From contig CAVTTI010000020.1 of the NCBI GenBank assembly GCA_963737615.1, positions 3,322 to 67,321 on the forward strand: a DNA stretch of 64,000 nucleotides. The letters run 5' to 3'. Below the pieces are notes generated by a model, which was given only the letters and a program-made list of their open reading frames with translations, was not told the origin of the DNA and did no database searches. Positions within the stretch are counted from its first letter, which is position 1; every line of letters begins with the position of its first letter. The DNA is from an uncultured Actinomycetes bacterium. GTDB lineage: Bacteria > Actinomycetota > Thermoleophilia > Gaiellales > Gaiellaceae. Positions 5,661-15,031 of this stretch are shown here, in pieces. The translations under genes and the position numbers were made by a program.

Positions 5661-6662
5661 ATGGCACAGGTCTACCGCGAAGGCAATCTCGACCTGCTGG
5701 ACGGAAAGGTGGCCGTCGTCGGCTACGGAAGCCAGGGGCACGCACACGCCCTCAACCTGCGTGACTCCGGCGTCGAGGTGGAGGTCGGCCTGCGCGCCGG
5801 GAGCGACTCGTGGGAGAAGGCTGAGGGCGCCGGGCTGACGGTTCGCGAGATCGCCGACGCCGTCCGGGGCGCACAGCTCGTCGCCATCTTGCTGCCCGAC
5901 CACGTCCAGAAAGGCGTCTTCGGGGCGGAGGTCGAGCCCAACCTGGAGCCGGGTGCCGCGATCCTCTTGGCGCACGGGTTCAGCGTCCATTTCGGGCAGA
6001 TTGCGCCTGCGGAAGGCCACGACGTGATCATGGTCGCGCCGAAGGGGCCCGGTCACCGGGTCCGGGAGCTGTTCGAGGCAGGCGGCGGCACGCCGGGGCT
6101 CATCGCTGTCGCGCAGGATGCGAGCGGCAACGCTCGCGACCTTGCGCTCGCCTACGGCGCCGCGATCGGTTGCGGGCGCGCCGGCATGCTCGAGACGACG
6201 TTTGCGGAGGAAACCGAAAGCGACCTCTTCGGCGAGCAGGCGGTCCTCTGCGGGGGCGTCACCGCCCTCATGCAGGCCGGGTTCGAGACGCTCGTGGAGG
6301 CCGGCTACCAGCCGGAGATCGCCTACTACGAGTGCATCAACGAGATGAAGCTGATCGTCGACCTGATCTACGAGGGTGGTTTCAGCTACATGCGCTACTC
6401 AATCTCCGACGTCGCCGAGTACGGCGACCTCACCAAGGGGCCGGTCGTGGTCGACGACCACGTGCGCGCCACGATGCGAAAGCTCCTCGAGGACATTCGC
6501 TCGGGTTCCTTCGCCCGCGAGCTGATCGCCGAGGAGGAAGCCGGACGCCCACGCTTCCAGGAGCTCCGCAAAGAGGCCGCGGCCCACCAGGTCGAGGAGG
6601 TCGGGCGGGAGCTCCGGAGCCTCATGCAGCGAGAAGGAACCCCGGCGCGTGAGCTCGGTTGA
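5661..6662 (+). CDS. ilvC: Ketol-acid reductoisomerase
   Basis: ORF 5280..6662 trimmed to ATG 5661 ([37 protein letters not shown]). SD-like AGGAAAGGA upstream. Confidence 0.95.
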
Positions 6663-7938
6663 CGTTCCGGTAGCGCTTCTCGGCTACGGGACGGTCGGCG
6701 CCGCCGTCAGCCGCCTTCTCGAGGACAACGCCGACGATATCGAGCGGGCCACCGGGCACCGGCTTCGCGTGGTGCGCGCACTCGTGCGCGATCTCGAGAA
6801 GGAGCGGGGTTTCACCGCCCCTCCCGGCGTTCTCACGACGCGGTTCGAAGACATGCTCGAGGACGACTCGATCGCCGTGGTCGCCGAGGTGATGGGCGGC
6901 CTCGATCCCACCGGGGAGTACGTCCTCTCGTTGCTTCGCTCCGGGAAGCCGGTCGTCTCGGCCAACAAGCAACTGGTTGCCCGGCGCGGGGCGGAGCTCT
7001 TTCACACGGCGTCCGAGGCGGGGGTCCAGCTTCGGTTCGAGGCGTCCGTTTGTGCTGCGATCCCGGTGATCAAAGTGCTCCGGGAGTCGCTCGTCGTCTC
7101 GAACGTCCATCGTGTCCTCGGAATCGTGAACGGGACGACGAACTTCATCCTCACCGAGATGGAGTCCGGCGCCCCATACGACGAGGCGCTTGCCGAGGCC
7201 CAGCGACTCGGGTATGCGGAGGCCGATCCGACCGAAGACATCTCCGGAGCGGACGCCGCGGCGAAGATGGCGATCCTGGCCACGGTTGCCTTCGGCACCC
7301 GAGTCGAGCTCGCCGACGTCGCCTACGAGGGCATCGAGGGCATCAGGCCCGAGCATGTAACGGCCGCGCGCGAGCTCGATACCGTCGTCCGGCTGATCGG
7401 CGCCGCCACTCTCGTGGACGGCACAGTCGACGTGCGTGTCCATCCAGCGCTGATCGACCGCCACCATCCGCTCGCTGCTGTCGAAGGGGCGTTCAATGCG
7501 ATCATGCTCCAGGGCGACGCCATCCGCGAGATCACCCTCGAGGGCCCCGGGGCTGGTGGTATCGAGACGGCGTCTGCGGTCGTGGCCGACATGGTCAGCG
7601 TCATCGGGACGACCGGCACGGGCTTCCTGCAAAACGACGCCTGCTGGCGCGAGCTCGAGCTGTTGCCGCCTGGAGAGCTCCGCTCCGCGTTCTACGTCAG
7701 GGTGGAGGTCGCAGACCGGCCCGGCGTGCTGGCGCACGTCGCCGAACGCCTCGCGGCCCACCAAGTTTCGGTCGCCCGGCTCACGCAACACCTATTGGAA
7801 GACGGCGCCGTACTCGATATCGTCACCCACGCGGCCCCCGGTGGAAGCGTGTCTGCTGCGCTTGCCGATGTGGCGACACTCGACGAGGTGCACGGCCAGC
7901 CCGAGGCGATGCGCGTGATCTCAGACCGGGGCGTCTAG
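6649..7938 (+). CDS. hom: Homoserine dehydrogenase with C-terminal ACT domain
   Basis: [13 protein letters not shown] Rossmann start, [36 protein letters not shown] motifs. Overlaps the ilvC end by 14 nt. Confidence 0.9.
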
Positions 7939-7956
7939 GTCTAGTCTGCAAGCGCG

Positions 7957-8940
7957 TTGACGCTTCCCCTCTCCGATCGATATCGCGACCGCCTGCCGCT
8001 CTCCGACTCGACTCCCCTCGTGTCGCTCGGGGAGGGCTCGACACCGCTTTTGCCGGCGCCCCGGCTCTCGGAGTGGCTGGGGCTCGACATCCTTCTCAAG
8101 TGGGAGGGCGCGAACCCGACCGGCTCCTTCAAGGATCGCGGCATGACGATCGCGATCGCGAAAGCCCTGGAGGAAGGCGCGGACGCGGTCGTCTGCGCCT
8201 CGACCGGGAACACAGCCGCGTCCGCCGCGGCCTACGCGGCCAGGGCCGGGCTCTCCGCGGTCGTCCTCCAGCCCGCCGGGGCCGTCGCATCGGGAAAGCT
8301 GGCGCAAGCCCGGGCGCTCGGTGCAAGGCTGCTCGAGGTGCAGGGCTCCTTCGACGACGCTCTCGATTCGGCCCGTGAGCTCGCTGGACGGGGCACGCAC
8401 GTGCTCGTGAACTCCCTGAACCCGCATCGCCTCGAGGGTCAGAAGACGGCAGCCTTCGAGATCGCGGAGGAGCTCGACGGGCCACCCGACGTCCTGGCGC
8501 TCCCCTACGGCGGCGGCGGGAACACGTGCGCCTACGCAAAGGGCTTTGCCGAGTGGGGAGCAGACGAGCCGAGGCTCCTTGCCGTCCAGTCCGGCGATCG
8601 GGCGCAGACCGTAGCCTCCGCGATCCGGATCAGGGATCCGGTTCACGCCGCCGGCGTGGCCGAGGCAATCGAGCGCTCTAAAGGCAACGTGGTCACCGTC
8701 TCCGACGACGAGATCCTTGCCGCCTGGCGCTTCCTCGCGCGCGAGGAGGGTGTCTTTTGTGAGCCGGCCTCGGCGGCCGCACTCGCCGGAGTCGAGGCGT
8801 CCGGGCTGGCGTCGGGCACGCGCGTCGTGTGCGTGATCACGGGCCACGGCTTGAAAGACCCGGAGACCGCCGCTCGGGAGTCTCCGGCTGCCACGGCCGT
8901 CTATGCGGACGTCACTTCGATCGCCGAGGCTGCGGCATGA
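7957..8940 (+). CDS. thrC: Threonine synthase (short type)
   Basis: LGEGSTPLL...KWEGANPTGSFKDRGMT (PLP lysine motif) and ASTGNTAASAAAYAA. TTG start. Confidence 0.9.
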   Translation: MTLPLSDRYRDRLPLSDSTPLVSLGEGSTPLLPAPRLSEWLGLDILLKWEGANPTGSFKDRGMTIAIAKALEEGADAVVCASTGNTAASAAAYAARAGLSAVVLQPAGAVASGKLAQARALGARLLEVQGSFDDALDSARELAGRGTHVLVNSLNPHRLEGQKTAAFEIAEELDGPPDVLALPYGGGGNTCAYAKGFAEWGADEPRLLAVQSGDRAQTVASAIRIRDPVHAAGVAEAIERSKGNVVTVSDDEILAAWRFLAREEGVFCEPASAAALAGVEASGLASGTRVVCVITGHGLKDPETAARESPAATAVYADVTSIAEAAA

Positions 8941-9076
8941 GCGTCGCTCGCCTCCGGCTCGCTCCCGCGGCGGAGACCATGCTTCCCCCCCGAGCTTCCT
9001 CCTTGCAGTCTGACGTCGAGGAACCTCCCGGTTCTCCCGCACCCCCTCCACGCGCTCATCGGCCGAAGGGCGGCCG

Positions 9077-9895
9077 GTGAGCATCCGCGTACGCGCCCCC
9101 GCATCGACCGCGAACGTGGGCCCCGGGTTTGACGCGGCGGCGGTTGCGTTCGACCTCTGGAACGAGCTCGAGATCTCAGAGGCGAACGGTGCCGCGCCAG
9201 ACTTTGGCCATCTCGGCGTCCGCGCCTTCGCCCGCGTGACTCCCGCGGAGAACTGGGCGTTCGCCTTCACCACCCGAATCCCCCGTGAACGCGGGCTCGG
9301 CTCGAGCGCGTCCGTGATCGCGCTCGGCCTCGTGGCTGGAACACTGGCCGCGGGAGGTGAGCCCGACCCCGAGGAGCTGCTCGCGGTCGGGATGAAGCTC
9401 GAAGGCCACCCGGACAACCTCGCCGCGGCACTGGCGGGTGGCGTGTGCCTCACGTGGTCCGGGCGCATCGCGCGGATCGCCGACGACGTTCCGGCCGTCC
9501 CGATCGCGATCGTTCCCGAGGAGACGCTCGCCACCTCTACGGCTCGAACCAGCCTTCCGAGCACCGTTCCACACCGCGACGCCGCTTTCACCGTTGGCCG
9601 CGCGGCTCTGCTCGGCGCGGCTCTTGCGTCCGGCTCGGCCGACCTCCTCGCGGCCTCACTCGCCGACCGGATCCACGAGCCCTACCGGGTGGCCCGCGCG
9701 CCCCTCCTAACGGCCGTTCGCGAACGGCTCCCGAGCGGGGCACTCGGCGTCTCGCTCTCCGGCTCCGGCCCGTCCGTCGTCGTCTGGGCGCGCCGCGAAG
9801 ACGCGAAGGCGTGTGAGGCGGAGCTTCGAGCGCGCTTCCCTCAGACGGACGTGATGCCGCTAGGAGTCGCGGGCCAGGGGGCAGGGCGGGTATGA
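9077..9895 (+). CDS. thrB: Homoserine kinase
   Basis: [17 protein letters not shown] and GLGSSAS (GHMP kinase motif). Confidence 0.9.
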
Positions 9896-11601
9896 GCGAG
9901 AACCCGTACGACCGCCCATCCGATCCGGCCAAGCGCCACAGCGCTGCGCTCACGGACGGGCCTGACCGCTCTCCCGCCCGGGCGATGCTCAAGGGGATCG
10001 GCTTCACCGACGACGACCTTGCACGCCCGCTCGTCGGTGTTGCGACCACGTGGATCGAGACGATGCCGTGCAACTGGAACCAGCGGGAGCTTGCCCAGGA
10101 CGTGAAGCGCGGGCTCCGCGAGGCCGGCGGGATGCCCGTCGAGTTCAACACGATCTCGGTCTCGGACGGAGTCTCGATGGGGACCGAGGGCATGCGCGCC
10201 TCTCTCGTCTCGCGCGAGGTGATCGCGGACTCGATCGAGCTCGTGGCGCGCGGGCACCTTTTCGACGGACTTGTCTGCCTGGTCGGCTGCGACAAGACGA
10301 TCCCCGCCGCCGTCATGGCGCTTGCACGACTCGACCTTCCAGGGCTCGTCCTCTATAACGGCTCGATCGCACCGGGCCGCTTTCGCGGGCGGGACGTGAC
10401 GATCCAGGACGTCTTCGAGGCGGTCGGAGCGCACGCGGTCGGGAACATGACCGGCGCCGAAGTCCACGAGCTCGAAGGTGCAGCTTGCCCCGGGGCGGGT
10501 GCCTGCGGCGGCCAGTTCACGGCGAACACCATGTCGACGGCGCTCGACTTCCTCGGGATCAGCCCCGCCGGCCTGAACGGCATTCCGGCCCTCGACCCGG
10601 CGAAGCACGAGGCCGCGGCCGAGGCGGGCCGGCTCGCGATGAGCCTCGTCCGGGACGACGTCCGGCCCTCGTCGATCGTCACGCGCGAAGCGCTCGAGAA
10701 CGCTGCGGCATCGATCGTCGCGACCGGTGGCTCCACGAACGGTGTCCTTCACCTGCTCGCCATCGCCCGGGAGCTGGACATCCCCTTCGAGCTGGAGGAC
10801 TTCGACCGCATCGCCGCCAGGACTCCGATCGTCGCGAGCCTCAAGCCGGGGGGCAGATTCGTCGCCACCGACATGCACGCGGCCGGCGGAGTCGCGCTCG
10901 TCGCCCGCGAGCTCCTGAAGCGGGATCTCGTTCATGCGGACGCACCGAACGTCGACGGCCGCTCGCTCGGCGAGGTCGCGACTGCGGTCGTCGAGAGTCC
11001 AGGCCAGAAGGTGGTCGTCCCGATCGACGAGCCGATCAAGACGACTGGCGGCCTCGCGATCCTGCGCGGGAACCTCGCACCCGAGGGGTCGGTGGTGAAG
11101 CTCGCAGGCCACGAGCGGCTGCTTCATCGCGGGCCGGCGCGGGTCTACGACTCCGAGGAGGACTGCTTCGCCGCCGTGAAGGCGAGAAGCATCGAGGCGG
11201 GCGACGTCGTCGTGATCCGCTACGAAGGCCCAGCGGGAGGTCCCGGCATGCGGGAGATGCTCCACGTCACGGCGGCGCTCGTCGGCGAGGGTCTCGGCGA
11301 TTCGGTCGCCCTGGTTACCGACGGGCGGTTCTCGGGCGCCACACACGGGCTTATGGTCGGCCACGTGGCGCCAGAGGCGGTTCGGGGCGGCCCGTTGGCA
11401 GCAGTCCACGACGGTGACACGGTCGTCGTGGACGTCGAGGGCCGCGAGCTCCGGGTCGAGCTCTCCGAGGACGAGCTCGAGGCGCGTCTCGCAGGCTGGA
11501 AGCCGCCGCCTGCGCGTTACACGCGTGGCGTCTTCGCCAAGTACGCGGCGGAGGTCTCGTCGGCGAGCGAGGGTGCGATTACGCGCCGACCGGGTTCGTA
11601 A
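9892..11601 (+). CDS. ilvD: Dihydroxy-acid dehydratase
   Basis: 569-aa ORF with [19 protein letters not shown] and [11 protein letters not shown] motifs. ATGA overlap with the thrB stop. Confidence 0.95.
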
Positions 11602-12646: not shown

Positions 12647-12704
12647 CCCGGCACGCTACCCGAACCTCAGGCGGGCTCTATACTTGCGGCGTGAGCGGGT
12701 CCGT

Positions 12705-12815
12705 CCTGCTCCGCATCGAGAGAGGCTGAGGGAACCGGCCCTGTGAAGCCTCGGCAACCTGCTCCTCGGAGCAAGGTGCCAAGCCCGGCCGGGCGTCGCC
12801 CGGAGGATGTCGAGC
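12705..12815 (+). promoter_or_regulatory. SAM-I (S-box) riboswitch
   Basis: CAUCGAGAGAGGCUGAGGGAACCGGCCCUGUGAAGCCUCGGCAACC...AAGGUGCCAAGCCCGGC...GGAGGAUG follows the S-box consensus block for block (AUCnAGAG-GGnnGAGGGAnnGGCCCnnUGAAnCCnnGCAACC...GGUGCnAAnnCCnGC...AGAU). The P1 3' strand overlaps the first candidate start region of the downstream gene. Confidence 0.9.
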
Positions 12816-14054
12816 CAACCGAAGGAGGATCCGTTGCCCGCCACCGCGCTCCGCTGTAGGAACTGCGCCACCGACCACCCGCTCGAGCAGCTGGCTGTCT
12901 GCTCGAAGTGCCTCGCACCGCTCGAGCCGACCTATGACTGGGAGGCGCTCGCCCGCACCGTGTCCCGGGAGTCGATCGCCTCCGGTCCGCCCTCGCTCTG
13001 GCGCTACGCGCCGCTTCTGCCGGTCGAGGCGCCCGGCGAGCAGCGCCTGGCACCCGGGTTGACGCCCCTCCTGCCGGCGCCGCGCCTCGCCGCCCAGGTC
13101 GGTGTCGCGGAGCTCTGGCTCAAGTGCGACACCGCCAACCCGACTCACTCGTTCAAGGACAGGGTGGTCGCAATCGCCGCCGCGAAGGCGACGGAGCTCG
13201 GGCTCGGAACGCTCGCGTGCTCCTCCACCGGAAATCTCGCGAACGCGGTGGGCGCGCGGGCGGCCGCCGAAGGGCTCCAGGCAGTCGTCCTCTGCCCGTC
13301 CGATCTCGAGCCCGAGAAGCTGCTCGCTACGGCCGTCTACGGCACGACGATTTACGCGGTCAGCGGGACGTACGACGACTGCTCGCGCCTCAGCCTGGAG
13401 CTCTCCTTCGAGCTCGACTGGGGCTTCGTGAATGTCGGACTCCGGGCGTACTACGCCGAGGGCTCGAAGACCCTCGCGTACGAGATCGCCGAGCAGCTCA
13501 GCTGGGAGCAGCCCGACGTCGTCGTCGGCCCCATCGCGTCCGGCGCGCTCTTCGGAAAGGTCGGGCAGGGGTTCGGCGAGCTTCGCCGGCTCGGCCTCGT
13601 GGACGGCCCCGGCCCGCGGCTCGTCGGCGGCCAGGCGGAGGGATGTGCGCCGGTCGCGACGGCCTTCGCCGAAGGCGGCCGGGCGAGGCCGGTCCGGCCC
13701 GCGACGCTGGCCCGTTCGCTCGCGATCGGCAACCCGGCGGACGCTGACCTTGCGCTCGCAACGGCGCGGGAGAGCGGCGGAGCGATCCATGCCGTGCCGG
13801 AGGGCGAGATCGGCGTCAACATGGGGCTTCTGGCCGAGACGACCGGCATCTTCGGAGAGACCGCAGCGGGTGTGGCGCTGGGCGCTCTCAGGACCGCGGT
13901 GGCCCGGGGGGCCGTTGGCGAGTCCGACCGGGTTGTCCTTCTCGTCACAGGCGACGGGTTGAAGACGCCCGACCCCGTCTCGGGAAGACTGGCTCCCATC
14001 GAAGTCGAGCCCGACGCAGAGGCGCTGCTCGACCTGGTCGGGGTCGCCGCATGA
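12807..14054 (+). CDS. Threonine-synthase-fold PLP enzyme with N-terminal Zn ribbon, under SAM riboswitch control (MetM-like candidate)
   Basis: CRNCATDHPLEQLAVCSKCLAPLEP (4-Cys ribbon), then NPTHSFKDRVVAIAAAKA (PLP lysine) and CSSTGNLANAVGA. The true start may be TTG 12834, preceded by GAAGGAGG. Confidence 0.8.
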   Translation: MSSQPKEDPLPATALRCRNCATDHPLEQLAVCSKCLAPLEPTYDWEALARTVSRESIASGPPSLWRYAPLLPVEAPGEQRLAPGLTPLLPAPRLAAQVGVAELWLKCDTANPTHSFKDRVVAIAAAKATELGLGTLACSSTGNLANAVGARAAAEGLQAVVLCPSDLEPEKLLATAVYGTTIYAVSGTYDDCSRLSLELSFELDWGFVNVGLRAYYAEGSKTLAYEIAEQLSWEQPDVVVGPIASGALFGKVGQGFGELRRLGLVDGPGPRLVGGQAEGCAPVATAFAEGGRARPVRPATLARSLAIGNPADADLALATARESGGAIHAVPEGEIGVNMGLLAETTGIFGETAAGVALGALRTAVARGAVGESDRVVLLVTGDGLKTPDPVSGRLAPIEVEPDAEALLDLVGVAA

Positions 14055-15031
14055 GGATCGTGGTCCTTCCGGGCGACGGAATCGGCCCCGAGGTGGCCCG
14101 CGAGGCGGTGCGCGCGCTCCAAGCCCTCGCACCCGAGGTCGAGCTCGAGGAGCGGCCCTTCGGGGGAGCTGCGATCCGCGAGAGCGGCGATCCGCTTCCG
14201 GCCGAGACGCTCGCGGCGTGCCGCGAGTCCGACGGCGTCCTGAAGGCGCCGATCGGTGACCCGGAGTTCGACGCAGCCGAGGTTCGTCCGGAGCACGGAA
14301 TGCTCAGTCTCCGCTCGAGCCTGGACGTCTACGCGAACCTGCGGCCGGCGCGCGACGGCAGGATCGATCTGCTGATCGTCCGAGAGCTCGTCGGCGGGCT
14401 TTACTACGGAGCCCGTGGTGTCAGGGCGGACGGAACGGTCTTCGACACCCTCGAGTACCACCCGCGCGAGGTCGTGCGCATCGCACGGCGCGCATTCGAG
14501 CTTGCACGGTCGCGGCAGGGGCGGCTCACGTCCGTCGACAAGGCGAACGTTCTCGACACATCGCGCATGTGGAGGCGAGTCGTTGGCGAGGTCGCCGCGG
14601 ATTACCCGGACGTCCAGTTGGACCACATGCTCGTCGACAATGCGGCGATGCAGCTTGCGAGCCGGCCTGAGCAGTTCGACGTCCTCGTCATGGAGAACAT
14701 GTTCGGAGACATTTTGAGCGACCTGGCAGCGGCCGTGACCGGCGGGCTCGGGCTGGCGCCCTCAGCGAGTCTCGGAGACGACGGGCCCGGGATCTTCGAG
14801 CCTGTGCACGGGTCGGCTCCGGACATCGCCGGAAGAGGCATCGCCAATCCGGCCGCCATGCTCCGTTCGACGGCGCTCCTGCTCGAGCACGCGCTCGCGA
14901 TGCCCGAGGAGGCGCGTTGCCTGGAGCGTGCTGTCGAGGAGGTAATGCGCGAACGCCCTACACCGGATCTCGGCGGCACGGCGACGACAACCGAGTTCGG
15001 TGCCGGAGTCCTCGAAAGGCTGGGCGGATGA
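14051..15031 (+). CDS. leuB: 3-isopropylmalate dehydrogenase
   Basis: MRIVVLPGDGIGPEV, SVDKANVL, LVDNAAMQL, NMFGDILSDLAA, HGSAPDIAGRGIANP: the full catalytic motif set. ATGA overlap with the upstream gene. Confidence 0.95.
   Translation: MRIVVLPGDGIGPEVAREAVRALQALAPEVELEERPFGGAAIRESGDPLPAETLAACRESDGVLKAPIGDPEFDAAEVRPEHGMLSLRSSLDVYANLRPARDGRIDLLIVRELVGGLYYGARGVRADGTVFDTLEYHPREVVRIARRAFELARSRQGRLTSVDKANVLDTSRMWRRVVGEVAADYPDVQLDHMLVDNAAMQLASRPEQFDVLVMENMFGDILSDLAAAVTGGLGLAPSASLGDDGPGIFEPVHGSAPDIAGRGIANPAAMLRSTALLLEHALAMPEEARCLERAVEEVMRERPTPDLGGTATTTEFGAGVLERLGG

What the first reader, a model, noticed from the sequence alone, without database searches (positions are those of the whole stretch)
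12705..14054. SAM-I riboswitch controls a second, Zn-ribbon-bearing threonine-synthase paralog: likely a methionine-branch enzyme, not ThrC
The S-box consensus is matched block for block at 12705-12815. Its 3' P1 strand overlaps the start region of a 415-aa ThrC-fold PLP enzyme that has an N-terminal 4-Cys ribbon. A canonical thrC sits 5 kb upstream in a hom-thrC-thrB cluster, so O-phosphohomoserine is made locally. SAM control makes sense if this paralog converts O-phosphohomoserine toward homocysteine. From memory, ThrC-like MetM enzymes acting with a sulfur-carrier protein have been reported in Streptomyces. No small sulfur-carrier gene is visible next to it here; leuB overlaps its stop instead. 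Two candidate starts exist: ATG 12807 inside P1, or TTG 12834 behind GAAGGAGG. Either suggests translational rather than transcriptional control.
Basis: partly seen in the sequence, partly recalled or inferred. Interest (0 to 1): 0.6.

Follow-up and report, generated by a model that had tools for sequence, protein, structure and literature searches.

The report
SAM riboswitch controlling carrier-less MetM
A genuine SAM-sensing RNA switch sits in front of a "threonine synthase" look-alike that most likely makes the methionine precursor homocysteine (the MetM route described in Streptomyces in 2024); it is a new example of a known system, unusual only in lacking the small sulfur-carrier gene next door.

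Summary
Rfam RF00162 (SAM-I) matches window 12710-12813 at 77.3 bits (gathering 44.4) and is the only such hit in this 73%-complete Gaiellaceae MAG. It precedes a ThrC-fold PLP enzyme with an N-terminal CxxC...CxxC cluster. A canonical hom-thrC-thrB set lies upstream, and leuB overlaps the stop codon. The true start is TTG 12834 (406 aa), not ATG 12807.

The MetM/MetO route is published (Hasebe et al. 2024), and metM there also has a SAM riboswitch.
- About 73 of 80 orthologous loci carry RF00162 upstream.
- 65 of 80 encode a MetO-type GG carrier within the fetched flank, essentially always directly downstream.
- The window protein nests inside that clade, far from canonical ThrC.
- In 41 genomes of its order, 16 have MetM only, 16 have MetX/MetY only, 2 have both and 7 have neither.
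- The same riboswitch fronts metM in one set of genomes and metY-metX in the other.

The Gaiellales-type lineage has no adjacent or dedicated metO. The genome does hold an E1, CysO~CysM, JAMM operon and a free GG carrier elsewhere. The sulfur donor is unresolved.

This scan has already reported the same carrier-less Gaiella-type MetM on other DNA. Verdict: new member of a known kind, modest interest.

The parts
12679..12684 (+). -10-like box TATACT, the putative promoter of the leader
   Evidence: Read from the sequence. TAnAnT-like boxes sit at the same place in relatives' leaders, by inspection. The consensus scan found no full sigma-70 site. Inferred.
12691..12714 (+). 5' leader hairpin: GAGCGGG 12693-12699, loop, CCUGCUC 12705-12711. 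It can extend into the first bases of the P1 5' strand, so it is a candidate anti-P1 element.
   Evidence: RNAfold of the leaders gives a hairpin in 15 of 15 own-family-type leaders, with compensatory changes in L027 (GGAAC/GUUCC) and L141 (GAGG/CCUC). No formal covariation statistic was computed. The role is inferred.
12710..12813 (+). SAM-I riboswitch aptamer (S-box), with P4 retained
   Evidence: RF00162, 77.3 bits, full model. It is the only RF00162 hit in the genome.
12821..12828 (+). Shine-Dalgarno GAAGGAGG, 5 nt before the start codon
   Evidence: Read from the sequence. Purine-rich boxes sit at the same place in relatives.
12834..14054 (+). metM-like gene: 406-aa ThrC-fold PLP enzyme, predicted O-phosphohomoserine-dependent homocysteine synthase
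   Evidence: domains; start and length; tree; model with pLDDT 95.5; ThrC fold with TM 0.77-0.79.
12855..12911 (+). N-terminal CxxC-x11-CxxC cluster (C8, C11, C23, C26), a Zn-ribbon-like module
   Evidence: It is present in 81 of 81 clade members and 31 of 33 wider relatives, and in 0 of 3 canonical ThrC. Solved ThrC structures do not cover it. Metal binding was not tested.
13155..13157 (+). Codon of K108 in the motif PTHSFKDR, the expected PLP-binding lysine
   Evidence: Alignment. The assignment rests on general knowledge of fold-type II PLP enzymes.
14051..15031 (+). leuB, whose start overlaps the metM-like stop (ATGA)
   Evidence: TIGR00169 at 380.5 bits, above cut-off. The distance from metM to leuB varies in relatives.
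6649..11601 (+). Upstream hom, canonical thrC, thrB and ilvD. This is a local source of O-phosphohomoserine, and the block is syntenic in Gaiellales-type relatives.

Best explanation
The gene at 12834-14054 is a MetM-type homocysteine synthase. It is a threonine-synthase-fold PLP enzyme that takes O-phosphohomoserine, made by the neighbouring hom/thrB genes, and replaces the phosphate with sulfur to give homocysteine. MetH then methylates homocysteine to methionine.

Its mRNA begins with a SAM-I riboswitch. When SAM is plentiful the aptamer closes P1 and expression falls. This most likely acts at translation initiation, because the SD and the TTG start lie within 20 nt of P1 and there is no terminator. 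A conserved 5' hairpin that overlaps the P1 5' strand probably acts as the competing 'on' structure.

This lineage, unlike most relatives, has no dedicated metO carrier gene. I consider the most likely sulfur donor to be a thiocarboxylated CysO-type carrier from the E1, CysO~CysM, JAMM operon elsewhere in the genome (about 50%). Free sulfide is next (about 30%).

Shown: the riboswitch, the fold, clade membership, the context statistics and the phyletic pattern. Inferred: the substrate, the product, the sulfur donor and the switching mechanism.
For: Riboswitch and paralogy:
- RF00162 scores 77.3 bits and is the sole hit in the genome.
- The genome has a separate canonical thrC in a hom-thrC-thrB cluster, 40% identical to this protein.

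Linkage in 80 orthologous loci:
- RF00162 lies directly upstream in about 73. Fifty match a strict regex, of which 5 of 5 tested were confirmed, and 23 of the 30 regex-negative loci match by Rfam.
- A MetO-type carrier of about 92 aa ending in PAVAGG is encoded within the fetched flank in 65 (64 by phmmer, plus L077 by the HMM). Where it is present it is essentially always the next ORF downstream.

Tree:
- The window protein lies in a 97* Gaiellales-type subclade, inside a 99* Actinomycetota clade of MetO- and riboswitch-linked proteins.
- Canonical ThrC is the outgroup.
- The cultured Nonomuraea gerenzanensis carries riboswitch, metM and metO, and falls in the same clade.

Survey of 41 genomes of the order:
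- 16 have MetM only, 16 have MetX/MetY only, 2 have both and 7 have neither.
- The riboswitch is directly upstream of metM in 17 of 18 MetM-positive genomes, and of metY(-metX) in 15 of 18 MetY-positive genomes.
- Other RF00162 copies front only Met or sulfur genes.

Own genome:
- MetH is present. No MetE, MetA/HTS, MetX or MetY passed its model.
- E1, a CysO-like carrier, CysM and JAMM are present.

Literature: MetM, MetO, Mec and MoeZ were shown experimentally in Streptomyces albulus, where metM has an upstream SAM riboswitch (PMC13759103, PMC12172450, bioRxiv 10.1101/2024.10.14.618325).
Against: - No metO is adjacent, and no MetO-grade carrier (PAVAGG type) exists anywhere in this assembly. 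The best is a CysO-type domain at 86.5 bits, in frame with CysM.
- I could not obtain the characterised S. albulus MetM sequence, so orthology to it is indirect.
- The genome is only 73% complete, and a MetX-like fragment sits at a contig edge. Its best match is PRK07581, not MetX. Absence of the classical route in this genome is therefore not proven.
- The phyletic pattern follows families, so it amounts to few independent contrasts. Seven genomes have neither route.
- A cyanobacterial MetM homolog was reported to behave as a threonine synthase/deaminase in vitro (PMC12172450).
- The SD-sequestering helix seen in the window's MFE fold is not robustly conserved. Duplex z-scores run from -3.3 to +1.3.
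Confidence: 0.82

Rival explanations
1. Same enzyme family and the same product, but this carrier-less lineage uses free sulfide (or another small sulfur donor) directly, like MetY, with no protein thiocarboxylate. This is a variant within the best explanation. Its odds are conditional on the MetM assignment.
For: - No metO is adjacent in any Gaiellales-type locus (L020-L030).
- No carrier shares a contig neighbourhood with metM in the 18 MetM-positive genomes of the order.
- Carriers are present whether or not MetM is, so none co-varies with it.
- A later paper mimicked 'MetM activity' with Na2S, citing Hasebe et al. (PMC12172450).
Against: - GapMind curators list the characterised enzyme as MetO-thiocarboxylate-dependent.
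- The ancestral state of the clade is MetO-linked.
- A complete E1, CysO, JAMM system is available in this genome.
Confidence: 0.3
2. The enzyme uses cysteine as the nucleophile. It would make cystathionine from O-phosphohomoserine, a plant-CGS-like reaction in a ThrC fold, and a PF01053 beta-lyase would then release homocysteine.
For: - It would explain the missing carrier.
- A PF01053 enzyme of ambiguous specificity exists in this genome at C25:142006-143127, with no NCBIfam model above cut-off.
- In one relative (G015) a PF01053 gene lies divergently next to the metM riboswitch.
Against: - PF01053 enzymes occur in all 41 genomes whether or not MetM is present, so there is no specific association.
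- The papers I could search describe no such activity for this family.
- Sister clades are carrier-linked.
Confidence: 0.07
3. It is a second true threonine synthase, or a threonine synthase/deaminase, and the SAM riboswitch merely balances the threonine and methionine branches at O-phosphohomoserine.
For: - It passes the general TIGR00260 thrC cut-off.
- Its fold matches solved ThrC structures.
- A Microcystis MetM homolog showed threonine-related activities in vitro (PMC12172450).
Against: - SAM-off control of a threonine synthase would raise threonine synthesis when methionine is scarce, which is the wrong direction for branch balancing.
- A canonical thrC is already present in the operon.
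- The clade is linked to sulfur carriers in 65 of 80 loci.
- Presence is largely complementary to MetX/MetY, and the riboswitch is shared with metY-metX.
- The closest specific ThrC model stays below its cut-off.
Confidence: 0.05

Closest known systems
SAM riboswitch, metM, metO locus of Streptomyces albulus, with Mec and MoeZ (Hasebe, Adachi, Maruyama, Hamano 2024, Appl Environ Microbiol 90:e01247-24). I know it only through PMC13759103, PMC12172450 and bioRxiv 10.1101/2024.10.14.618325.
   Same: - A ThrC-fold PLP enzyme distinct from the housekeeping ThrC.
- A SAM riboswitch upstream.
- O-phosphohomoserine supplied by hom/thrB.
- E1 (MoeZ-like) and JAMM (Mec-like) genes in the genome.
- Membership of a clade whose other members are followed by a MetO-type GG carrier.
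   Different: - No adjacent or dedicated metO.
- The gene is embedded in a hom, thrC, thrB, ilvD, [riboswitch], metM, leuB amino-acid cluster.
- The stop overlaps the leuB start.
CysO, CysM, Mec, MoeZ protein-thiocarboxylate cysteine pathway of Mycobacterium tuberculosis (from my own knowledge of the literature)
   Same: This genome holds an E1 (rhodanese + ThiF), CysO-like carrier, CysM, JAMM operon on contig C23. It is the most plausible source of a carrier for MetM.
   Different: - That pathway makes cysteine from O-phosphoserine, not homocysteine.
- Here the carrier and CysM share one open frame, with no stop after GG.
Canonical threonine synthase ThrC (TIGR00260; PDB 2zsj, 1uim, 6cgq, 2d1f)
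   Same: Same fold (Foldseek TM 0.77-0.79), the same PLP-lysine motif and the same substrate, O-phosphohomoserine.
   Different: - An extra N-terminal Cys4 module.
- 32-40% identity.
- A separate clade.
- SAM-riboswitch control and carrier linkage in orthologs.
- A canonical thrC co-exists in the same window.
S-box-controlled metY-metX (O-acetylhomoserine sulfhydrylase route)
   Same: The same riboswitch class and the same metabolic product. In this order the two systems largely replace each other.
   Different: Unrelated enzyme fold (PF01053) and a different activated homoserine (acetyl rather than phospho).

Membership tests
SAM-I riboswitch (Rfam RF00162) | Covariance-model score above the curated gathering threshold over the full model | tested here: met
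   77.3 bits against 44.4, model positions 1-108.
SAM-I riboswitch (Rfam RF00162) | Sits in the 5' leader of a methionine or sulfur-metabolism gene, on the same strand | tested here: met
   It ends 20 nt before the start of the metM-like gene. The same arrangement holds in about 73 of 80 orthologous loci.
SAM-I riboswitch (Rfam RF00162) | Binds SAM and changes expression | not testable with these tools
   Needs in-line probing or ITC, plus reporter assays.
MetM-type homocysteine synthase | ThrC-fold (fold-type II) PLP enzyme with the PLP lysine | tested here: met
   PF00291 at 205 bits; K108 in PTHSFKDR; AF2 model with pLDDT 95.5 matching ThrC structures.
MetM-type homocysteine synthase | A paralog distinct from the housekeeping ThrC, which is also present | tested here: met
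   Canonical thrC at 7957-8940, 40% identical. The two fall in separate clades.
MetM-type homocysteine synthase | Groups phylogenetically with proteins encoded next to a MetO carrier | tested here: met
   It lies inside a 99* clade whose other members are MetO-linked, including Nonomuraea.
MetM-type homocysteine synthase | A dedicated MetO sulfur-carrier gene next to it | tested here: not met
   None is adjacent here or in L020-L030. The best carriers in the genome are a CysO-type domain (C23), a frameshifted copy (C30) and a weak free-standing one (C6).
MetM-type homocysteine synthase | Accessory E1 (MoeZ) and JAMM peptidase (Mec) present in the genome | tested here: met
   C23 has a rhodanese + ThiF E1 and a Prok-JAB protein. 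C30 has a second, damaged set.
MetM-type homocysteine synthase | SAM riboswitch upstream, as reported for S. albulus metM | tested here: met
.
MetM-type homocysteine synthase | Orthology to the experimentally characterised S. albulus MetM (A0A059WBP2) | not tested
   No tool gave access to that sequence, and the paper PMC11497804 is not held.
MetM-type homocysteine synthase | Converts O-phosphohomoserine plus a sulfur donor to homocysteine | not testable with these tools
   Needs an enzyme assay or genetic complementation.
Canonical threonine synthase (ThrC) | Passes the curated equivalog model | tested here: inconclusive
   TIGR00260 is passed (218.6 vs 167.1), but the closest model, NF006050/PRK08197, is not (275.5 vs 303). 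GapMind's authors note that MetM is often misannotated as ThrC.
Canonical threonine synthase (ThrC) | Is the thrC of the hom-thrC-thrB threonine operon | tested here: not met
   Another gene (7957-8940) holds that position.

The most novel reading that the evidence does not exclude
In Gaiellales-type actinobacteria MetM has lost its dedicated MetO. It either borrows the cysteine-pathway carrier, so that one E1, CysO, JAMM system feeds both cysteine and homocysteine synthesis, or it has become a carrier-independent, sulfide-using O-phosphohomoserine sulfhydrylase. At the same time the gene was recruited into the hom, thrC, thrB, ilvD, leuB cluster under a riboswitch whose 'on' state is set by a 5' hairpin competing for P1.
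Probability: 0.5. Interest if true: 0.4.

Novelty: new member of a known kind. Interest (0 to 1): 0.25.

Why it matters
- Annotation. Every database name I saw for this protein and its relatives is 'threonine synthase'. Pathway reconstructions of Gaiellales and other soil Actinomycetota would therefore wrongly predict methionine auxotrophy in the 16 of 41 surveyed genomes that have MetM but no MetX/MetY.
- Support for the function. The swap between riboswitch-metM and riboswitch-metY-metX within one order is clean comparative support for the MetM function outside Streptomyces.
- Open biochemical question. The carrier-less lineages ask whether MetM needs a dedicated carrier at all. That is a small, testable extension of a known pathway, not a new kind of system.

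Tried and rejected
- Reading Hasebe et al. 2024 directly: not held. GapMind supplements: none held.
It worked with A3.
- Streptomyces anchor. Cluster look-up of ten representatives gave Micromonosporaceae, an archaeon and unnamed metagenome proteins, but no Streptomyces. The plasmid collection gave only Nonomuraea.
- Hand-built riboswitch alignment for a covariance model: abandoned because many relatives lack P4. Rfam was used instead.
- RNAalifold on the leaders recovered the aptamer core (P2, P3 and P4 stems) plus a doubtful pairing of GCAU with the start codon. Not used.
- Leader-to-SD complementarity and P1-dependent SD accessibility: inconsistent across relatives. I therefore claim no specific sequestering helix.
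There is no result and no claim.
- PF01053 distribution as a test of the cystathionine rival: uninformative, because it is present in all 41 genomes.
- Second-tier carriers (C6 type) as a MetM-specific partner: rejected, because they occur in MetM-negative genomes too.
- Zn ribbon as a MetM marker: rejected, because it is shared by 31 of 33 wider relatives.
Full report
**1. The observation**

Rfam's SAM-I model RF00162 matches window 12710-12813 on the + strand over its full length. The score is 77.3 bits against a gathering score of 44.4, with E 2e-16. It is the only Rfam hit in the window and the only RF00162 hit in the whole assembly. The assembly is a MAG of 2.74 Mb in 48 contigs, 73% complete. 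Names given to its closest protein relatives place it in Gaiellaceae, Thermoleophilia.

The ORF behind the riboswitch is a PALP-fold enzyme (PF00291, 205 bits). It passes the general thrC model TIGR00260 (218.6 vs 167.1). Its closest model, PRK08197, stays below cut-off (275.5 vs 303).

- hom (6649-7938), canonical thrC (7957-8940), thrB (9077-9895) and ilvD lie upstream.
- An MscS-like gene lies divergently on the other strand.
- The leuB ATG (14051) overlaps the TGA of the ThrC-like gene.

One correction concerns the start codon. The TTG at 12834 aligns with the ATG or GTG of ten relatives and is followed by a conserved Pro-Ala. Most homologs are 404-406 aa. The protein therefore has 406 residues. 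The ATG at 12807 is just part of the P1 3' strand.

**2. What the protein is**

The MetM/MetO route is published. MetM is a ThrC homolog that makes homocysteine from O-phosphohomoserine with a MetO thiocarboxylate, helped by Mec and MoeZ. It was shown in Streptomyces albulus (Hasebe et al. 2024, as listed in GapMind 2026). There, metM has an upstream SAM riboswitch (PMC12172450). I could not read the primary paper or obtain its sequences, so I tested membership through context and phylogeny.

I fetched 80 named loci that encode relatives. They come from Thermoleophilia, Acidimicrobiia, Chloroflexota, Frankiaceae, Mycobacteriales and Egibacteraceae.
- A strict S-box regex matched upstream in 50. 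Five of these were checked with Rfam, and all five were confirmed.
- Of the 30 regex-negative loci, 23 have RF00162 directly upstream. That gives about 73 of 80.
- Within the fetched flank, 65 of 80 encode a carrier of about 92 aa ending in ...LPAVAGG (64 by phmmer, plus L077 by the HMM). Where it is present it is essentially always the next ORF downstream.
- The 15 exceptions include all eleven Gaiellales-type loci (L020-L030). In these the gene instead sits in a conserved hom, thrC, thrB, ilvD, [riboswitch], gene, (leuB) block.

A maximum-likelihood tree of 117 rows gave the following:
- The window protein lies in a 97* Gaiellales-type subclade.
- That subclade is sister to the MetO-linked Solirubrobacterales, within a 99* Actinomycetota clade.
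- MetO-linked Chloroflexota lie just outside. Canonical ThrC is the outgroup.
- Loss of metO adjacency is therefore derived.

A named, cultured anchor turned up in the plasmid collection. Nonomuraea gerenzanensis has RF00162 (68.7 bits), then a protein 47.8% identical to the window's, then a MetO-type carrier (127.5 bits). It falls in the Actinomycetes subclade (99*) of the same clade.

**3. Phyletic and regulatory test**

I surveyed 41 genomes of the window's order, each at least 85% complete, with the window's own 73%-complete genome included.
- 16 have the MetM-like gene but no MetX or MetY.
- 16 have MetX and/or MetY but no MetM.
- 2 have both, and 7 have neither.
- RF00162 lies directly upstream of metM in 17 of 18 MetM-positive genomes.
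- RF00162 lies directly upstream of metY(-metX) in 15 of 18 MetY-positive genomes.
- In 14 MetM-only genomes it is the only SAM-I copy.
- Other copies in the order front a YitJ-type homocysteine methyltransferase/MTHFR or a sulfite reductase.

These counts follow family lines, so they amount to few independent contrasts. They also include G022, an unpublished genome. It is one of the 16 MetX/MetY-only genomes and one of the metY riboswitch cases.

In the window's own genome MetH is complete (1612 bits). MetE and MetA/HTS were not found, and no MetX or MetY passed. A MetX-like fragment at a contig edge matches PRK07581 best, not MetX. One PF01053 enzyme of ambiguous type exists. At 73% completeness, absence is not proven.

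**4. The missing carrier**

A MetO HMM built from the adjacent carriers finds three candidates in the genome.
- **C23 domain (86.5 bits).** It lies between an E1 (rhodanese + ThiF) and a JAMM peptidase, and it runs in frame into CysM with no stop after GG.
- **C30 copy (74.5 bits).** It sits at a low-GC contig start next to cysM, mec and moeZ, and it has at least two frameshifts.
- **C6 carrier (56 bits).** It is free-standing, about 87 aa, and ends in GG-stop.

In relatives the C23-type carrier sits in E1, carrier, CysM operons and ends in GG plus two residues. Carriers of both types occur whether or not MetM is present, so none is MetM-specific. No NIL-domain protein, a frequent companion according to earlier notes of this scan, was found.

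The sulfur donor is therefore open. My odds are roughly 50% for a shared CysO-type carrier, 30% for free sulfide, under 10% for cysteine (cystathionine formation), and the rest unknown. The cystathionine idea could not be tested by distribution, because PF01053 enzymes are universal in the order.

**5. Structure and the Cys cluster**

An AlphaFold2 model built on 40 sequences is confident (pLDDT 95.5, pTM 0.93). It matches bacterial ThrC structures at TM 0.77-0.79. Those structures cover only residues about 52-405.

The CxxC-x11-CxxC cluster occurs in 81 of 81 clade members and 31 of 33 wider relatives. It is absent from the three canonical ThrCs examined. It therefore marks the wider long-ThrC-like family, not MetM as such. 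Its role is unknown, and metal binding was not tested.

**6. How the switch probably works**

Only 20 nt separate the aptamer from the TTG start, and they contain GAAGGAGG. No + strand terminator is present. Control at translation initiation is therefore the simplest reading.

In the window's MFE fold, the leader strand 12694-12707 pairs with the SD and start region as an extension of P1. That complementarity is only weakly and inconsistently better than shuffles in relatives (window z = -2.7, mean about -1.1, range -3.3 to +1.3). I do not claim it.

What is conserved is a hairpin directly 5' of P1 (GAGCGGG...CCUGCUC, 12693-12711).
- It can extend into the first bases of the P1 5' strand.
- It folds in 15 of 15 own-family-type leaders, with compensatory changes in L027 and L141.
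- A different sequence sits at the same place in family f5.
- It begins a few bases after a conserved -10-like box.

It is a reasonable candidate for the competing SAM-free structure. That is an inference.

**7. Comparison, novelty and verdict**

This is a member of the MetM family under the riboswitch control already reported for metM. One defining feature, a dedicated neighbouring metO, was tested and is not met in this lineage. This scan has reported SAM-controlled MetM/MetO operons about 230 times. It has also reported this carrier-less Gaiella-type form on other DNA.

I therefore rate it a new member of a known kind with modest interest. Its value lies in correcting the 'threonine synthase' label, and in the small open question of where the sulfur comes from.

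Noticed in passing
Own genome G000:C23:91483-94435 (outside the window; loci L008, L101, L151): A complete protein-thiocarboxylate operon: an E1 with N-terminal rhodanese plus ThiF, a CysO-like carrier, CysM, and a JAMM peptidase. The carrier's GG is followed in frame by ERVLAPSM... of CysM with no stop codon, so it looks like a carrier-CysM fusion that would need JAMM cleavage. In relatives the carrier is a separate gene ending in GG plus two residues.
   Followed up: partly
Own genome G000:C30:1-2800 (locus L102): A second cysM, mec, CysO-like, moeZ cluster at a contig start. It has at least two frameshifts (one in the carrier, one in moeZ), no stop between the carrier's GG and moeZ, and lower GC (0.64 vs 0.67). 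It could be decaying genes, assembly errors or foreign DNA.
   Followed up: partly
window 14051-14054: The leuB start overlaps the metM-like stop (ATGA). This suggests translational coupling, which would put a leucine-pathway gene partly under SAM control. In relatives leuB lies 0 to about 2000 nt downstream, so the coupling is not conserved.
   Followed up: partly
L021, L025-L028, L031-L035, L038, L043; G002, G012, G034 leaders: Many relatives' RF00162 hits are only 88-96 nt long and lack the P4 stem, whereas the window's aptamer keeps P4 (12783-12797).
   Followed up: partly
Relatives G017, G025, G031, G037 (same family) and G004, G009, G014: Genomes 86-98% complete with none of MetM, MetX or MetY found. 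In G025 and G037 the only SAM-I riboswitch fronts a YitJ-type homocysteine methyltransferase/MTHFR. How these make homocysteine, or whether they do, is unexplained.
   Followed up: partly
Relative G040:C4:180-455 (locus L108): A true MetO-type carrier (145 bits, ...LPAVAGG) lies right at a contig start in a same-family genome where no MetM was found. The metM may have been cut off by the contig break.
   Followed up: no
L055:5690-6116: A T-box leader (104 bits) sits just downstream of the metM-metO pair in a Chloroflexi MAG that lacks the SAM riboswitch upstream of metM.
   Followed up: no
Model ma7644833654e (window 12834-14051): The best global superposition is with Arabidopsis threonine synthase 2c2b (TM 0.91 normalised to the query, 439 columns). 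That is the SAM-activated plant enzyme with an N-terminal extension. I did not examine whether the N-terminal regions really correspond.
   Followed up: no
Own genome G000:C19:1-540: A MetX-like alpha/beta-hydrolase fragment is cut by the contig end. Its best match is PRK07581 (141.7 bits), not MetX (78.7 bits). It keeps open a small chance of a classical route in the unassembled part of the genome.
   Followed up: partly
Relative G015:C1:737373-738431: A PF01053 (Cys/Met PLP) gene lies divergently about 380 nt from the metM riboswitch. Seen in one genome only.
   Followed up: no
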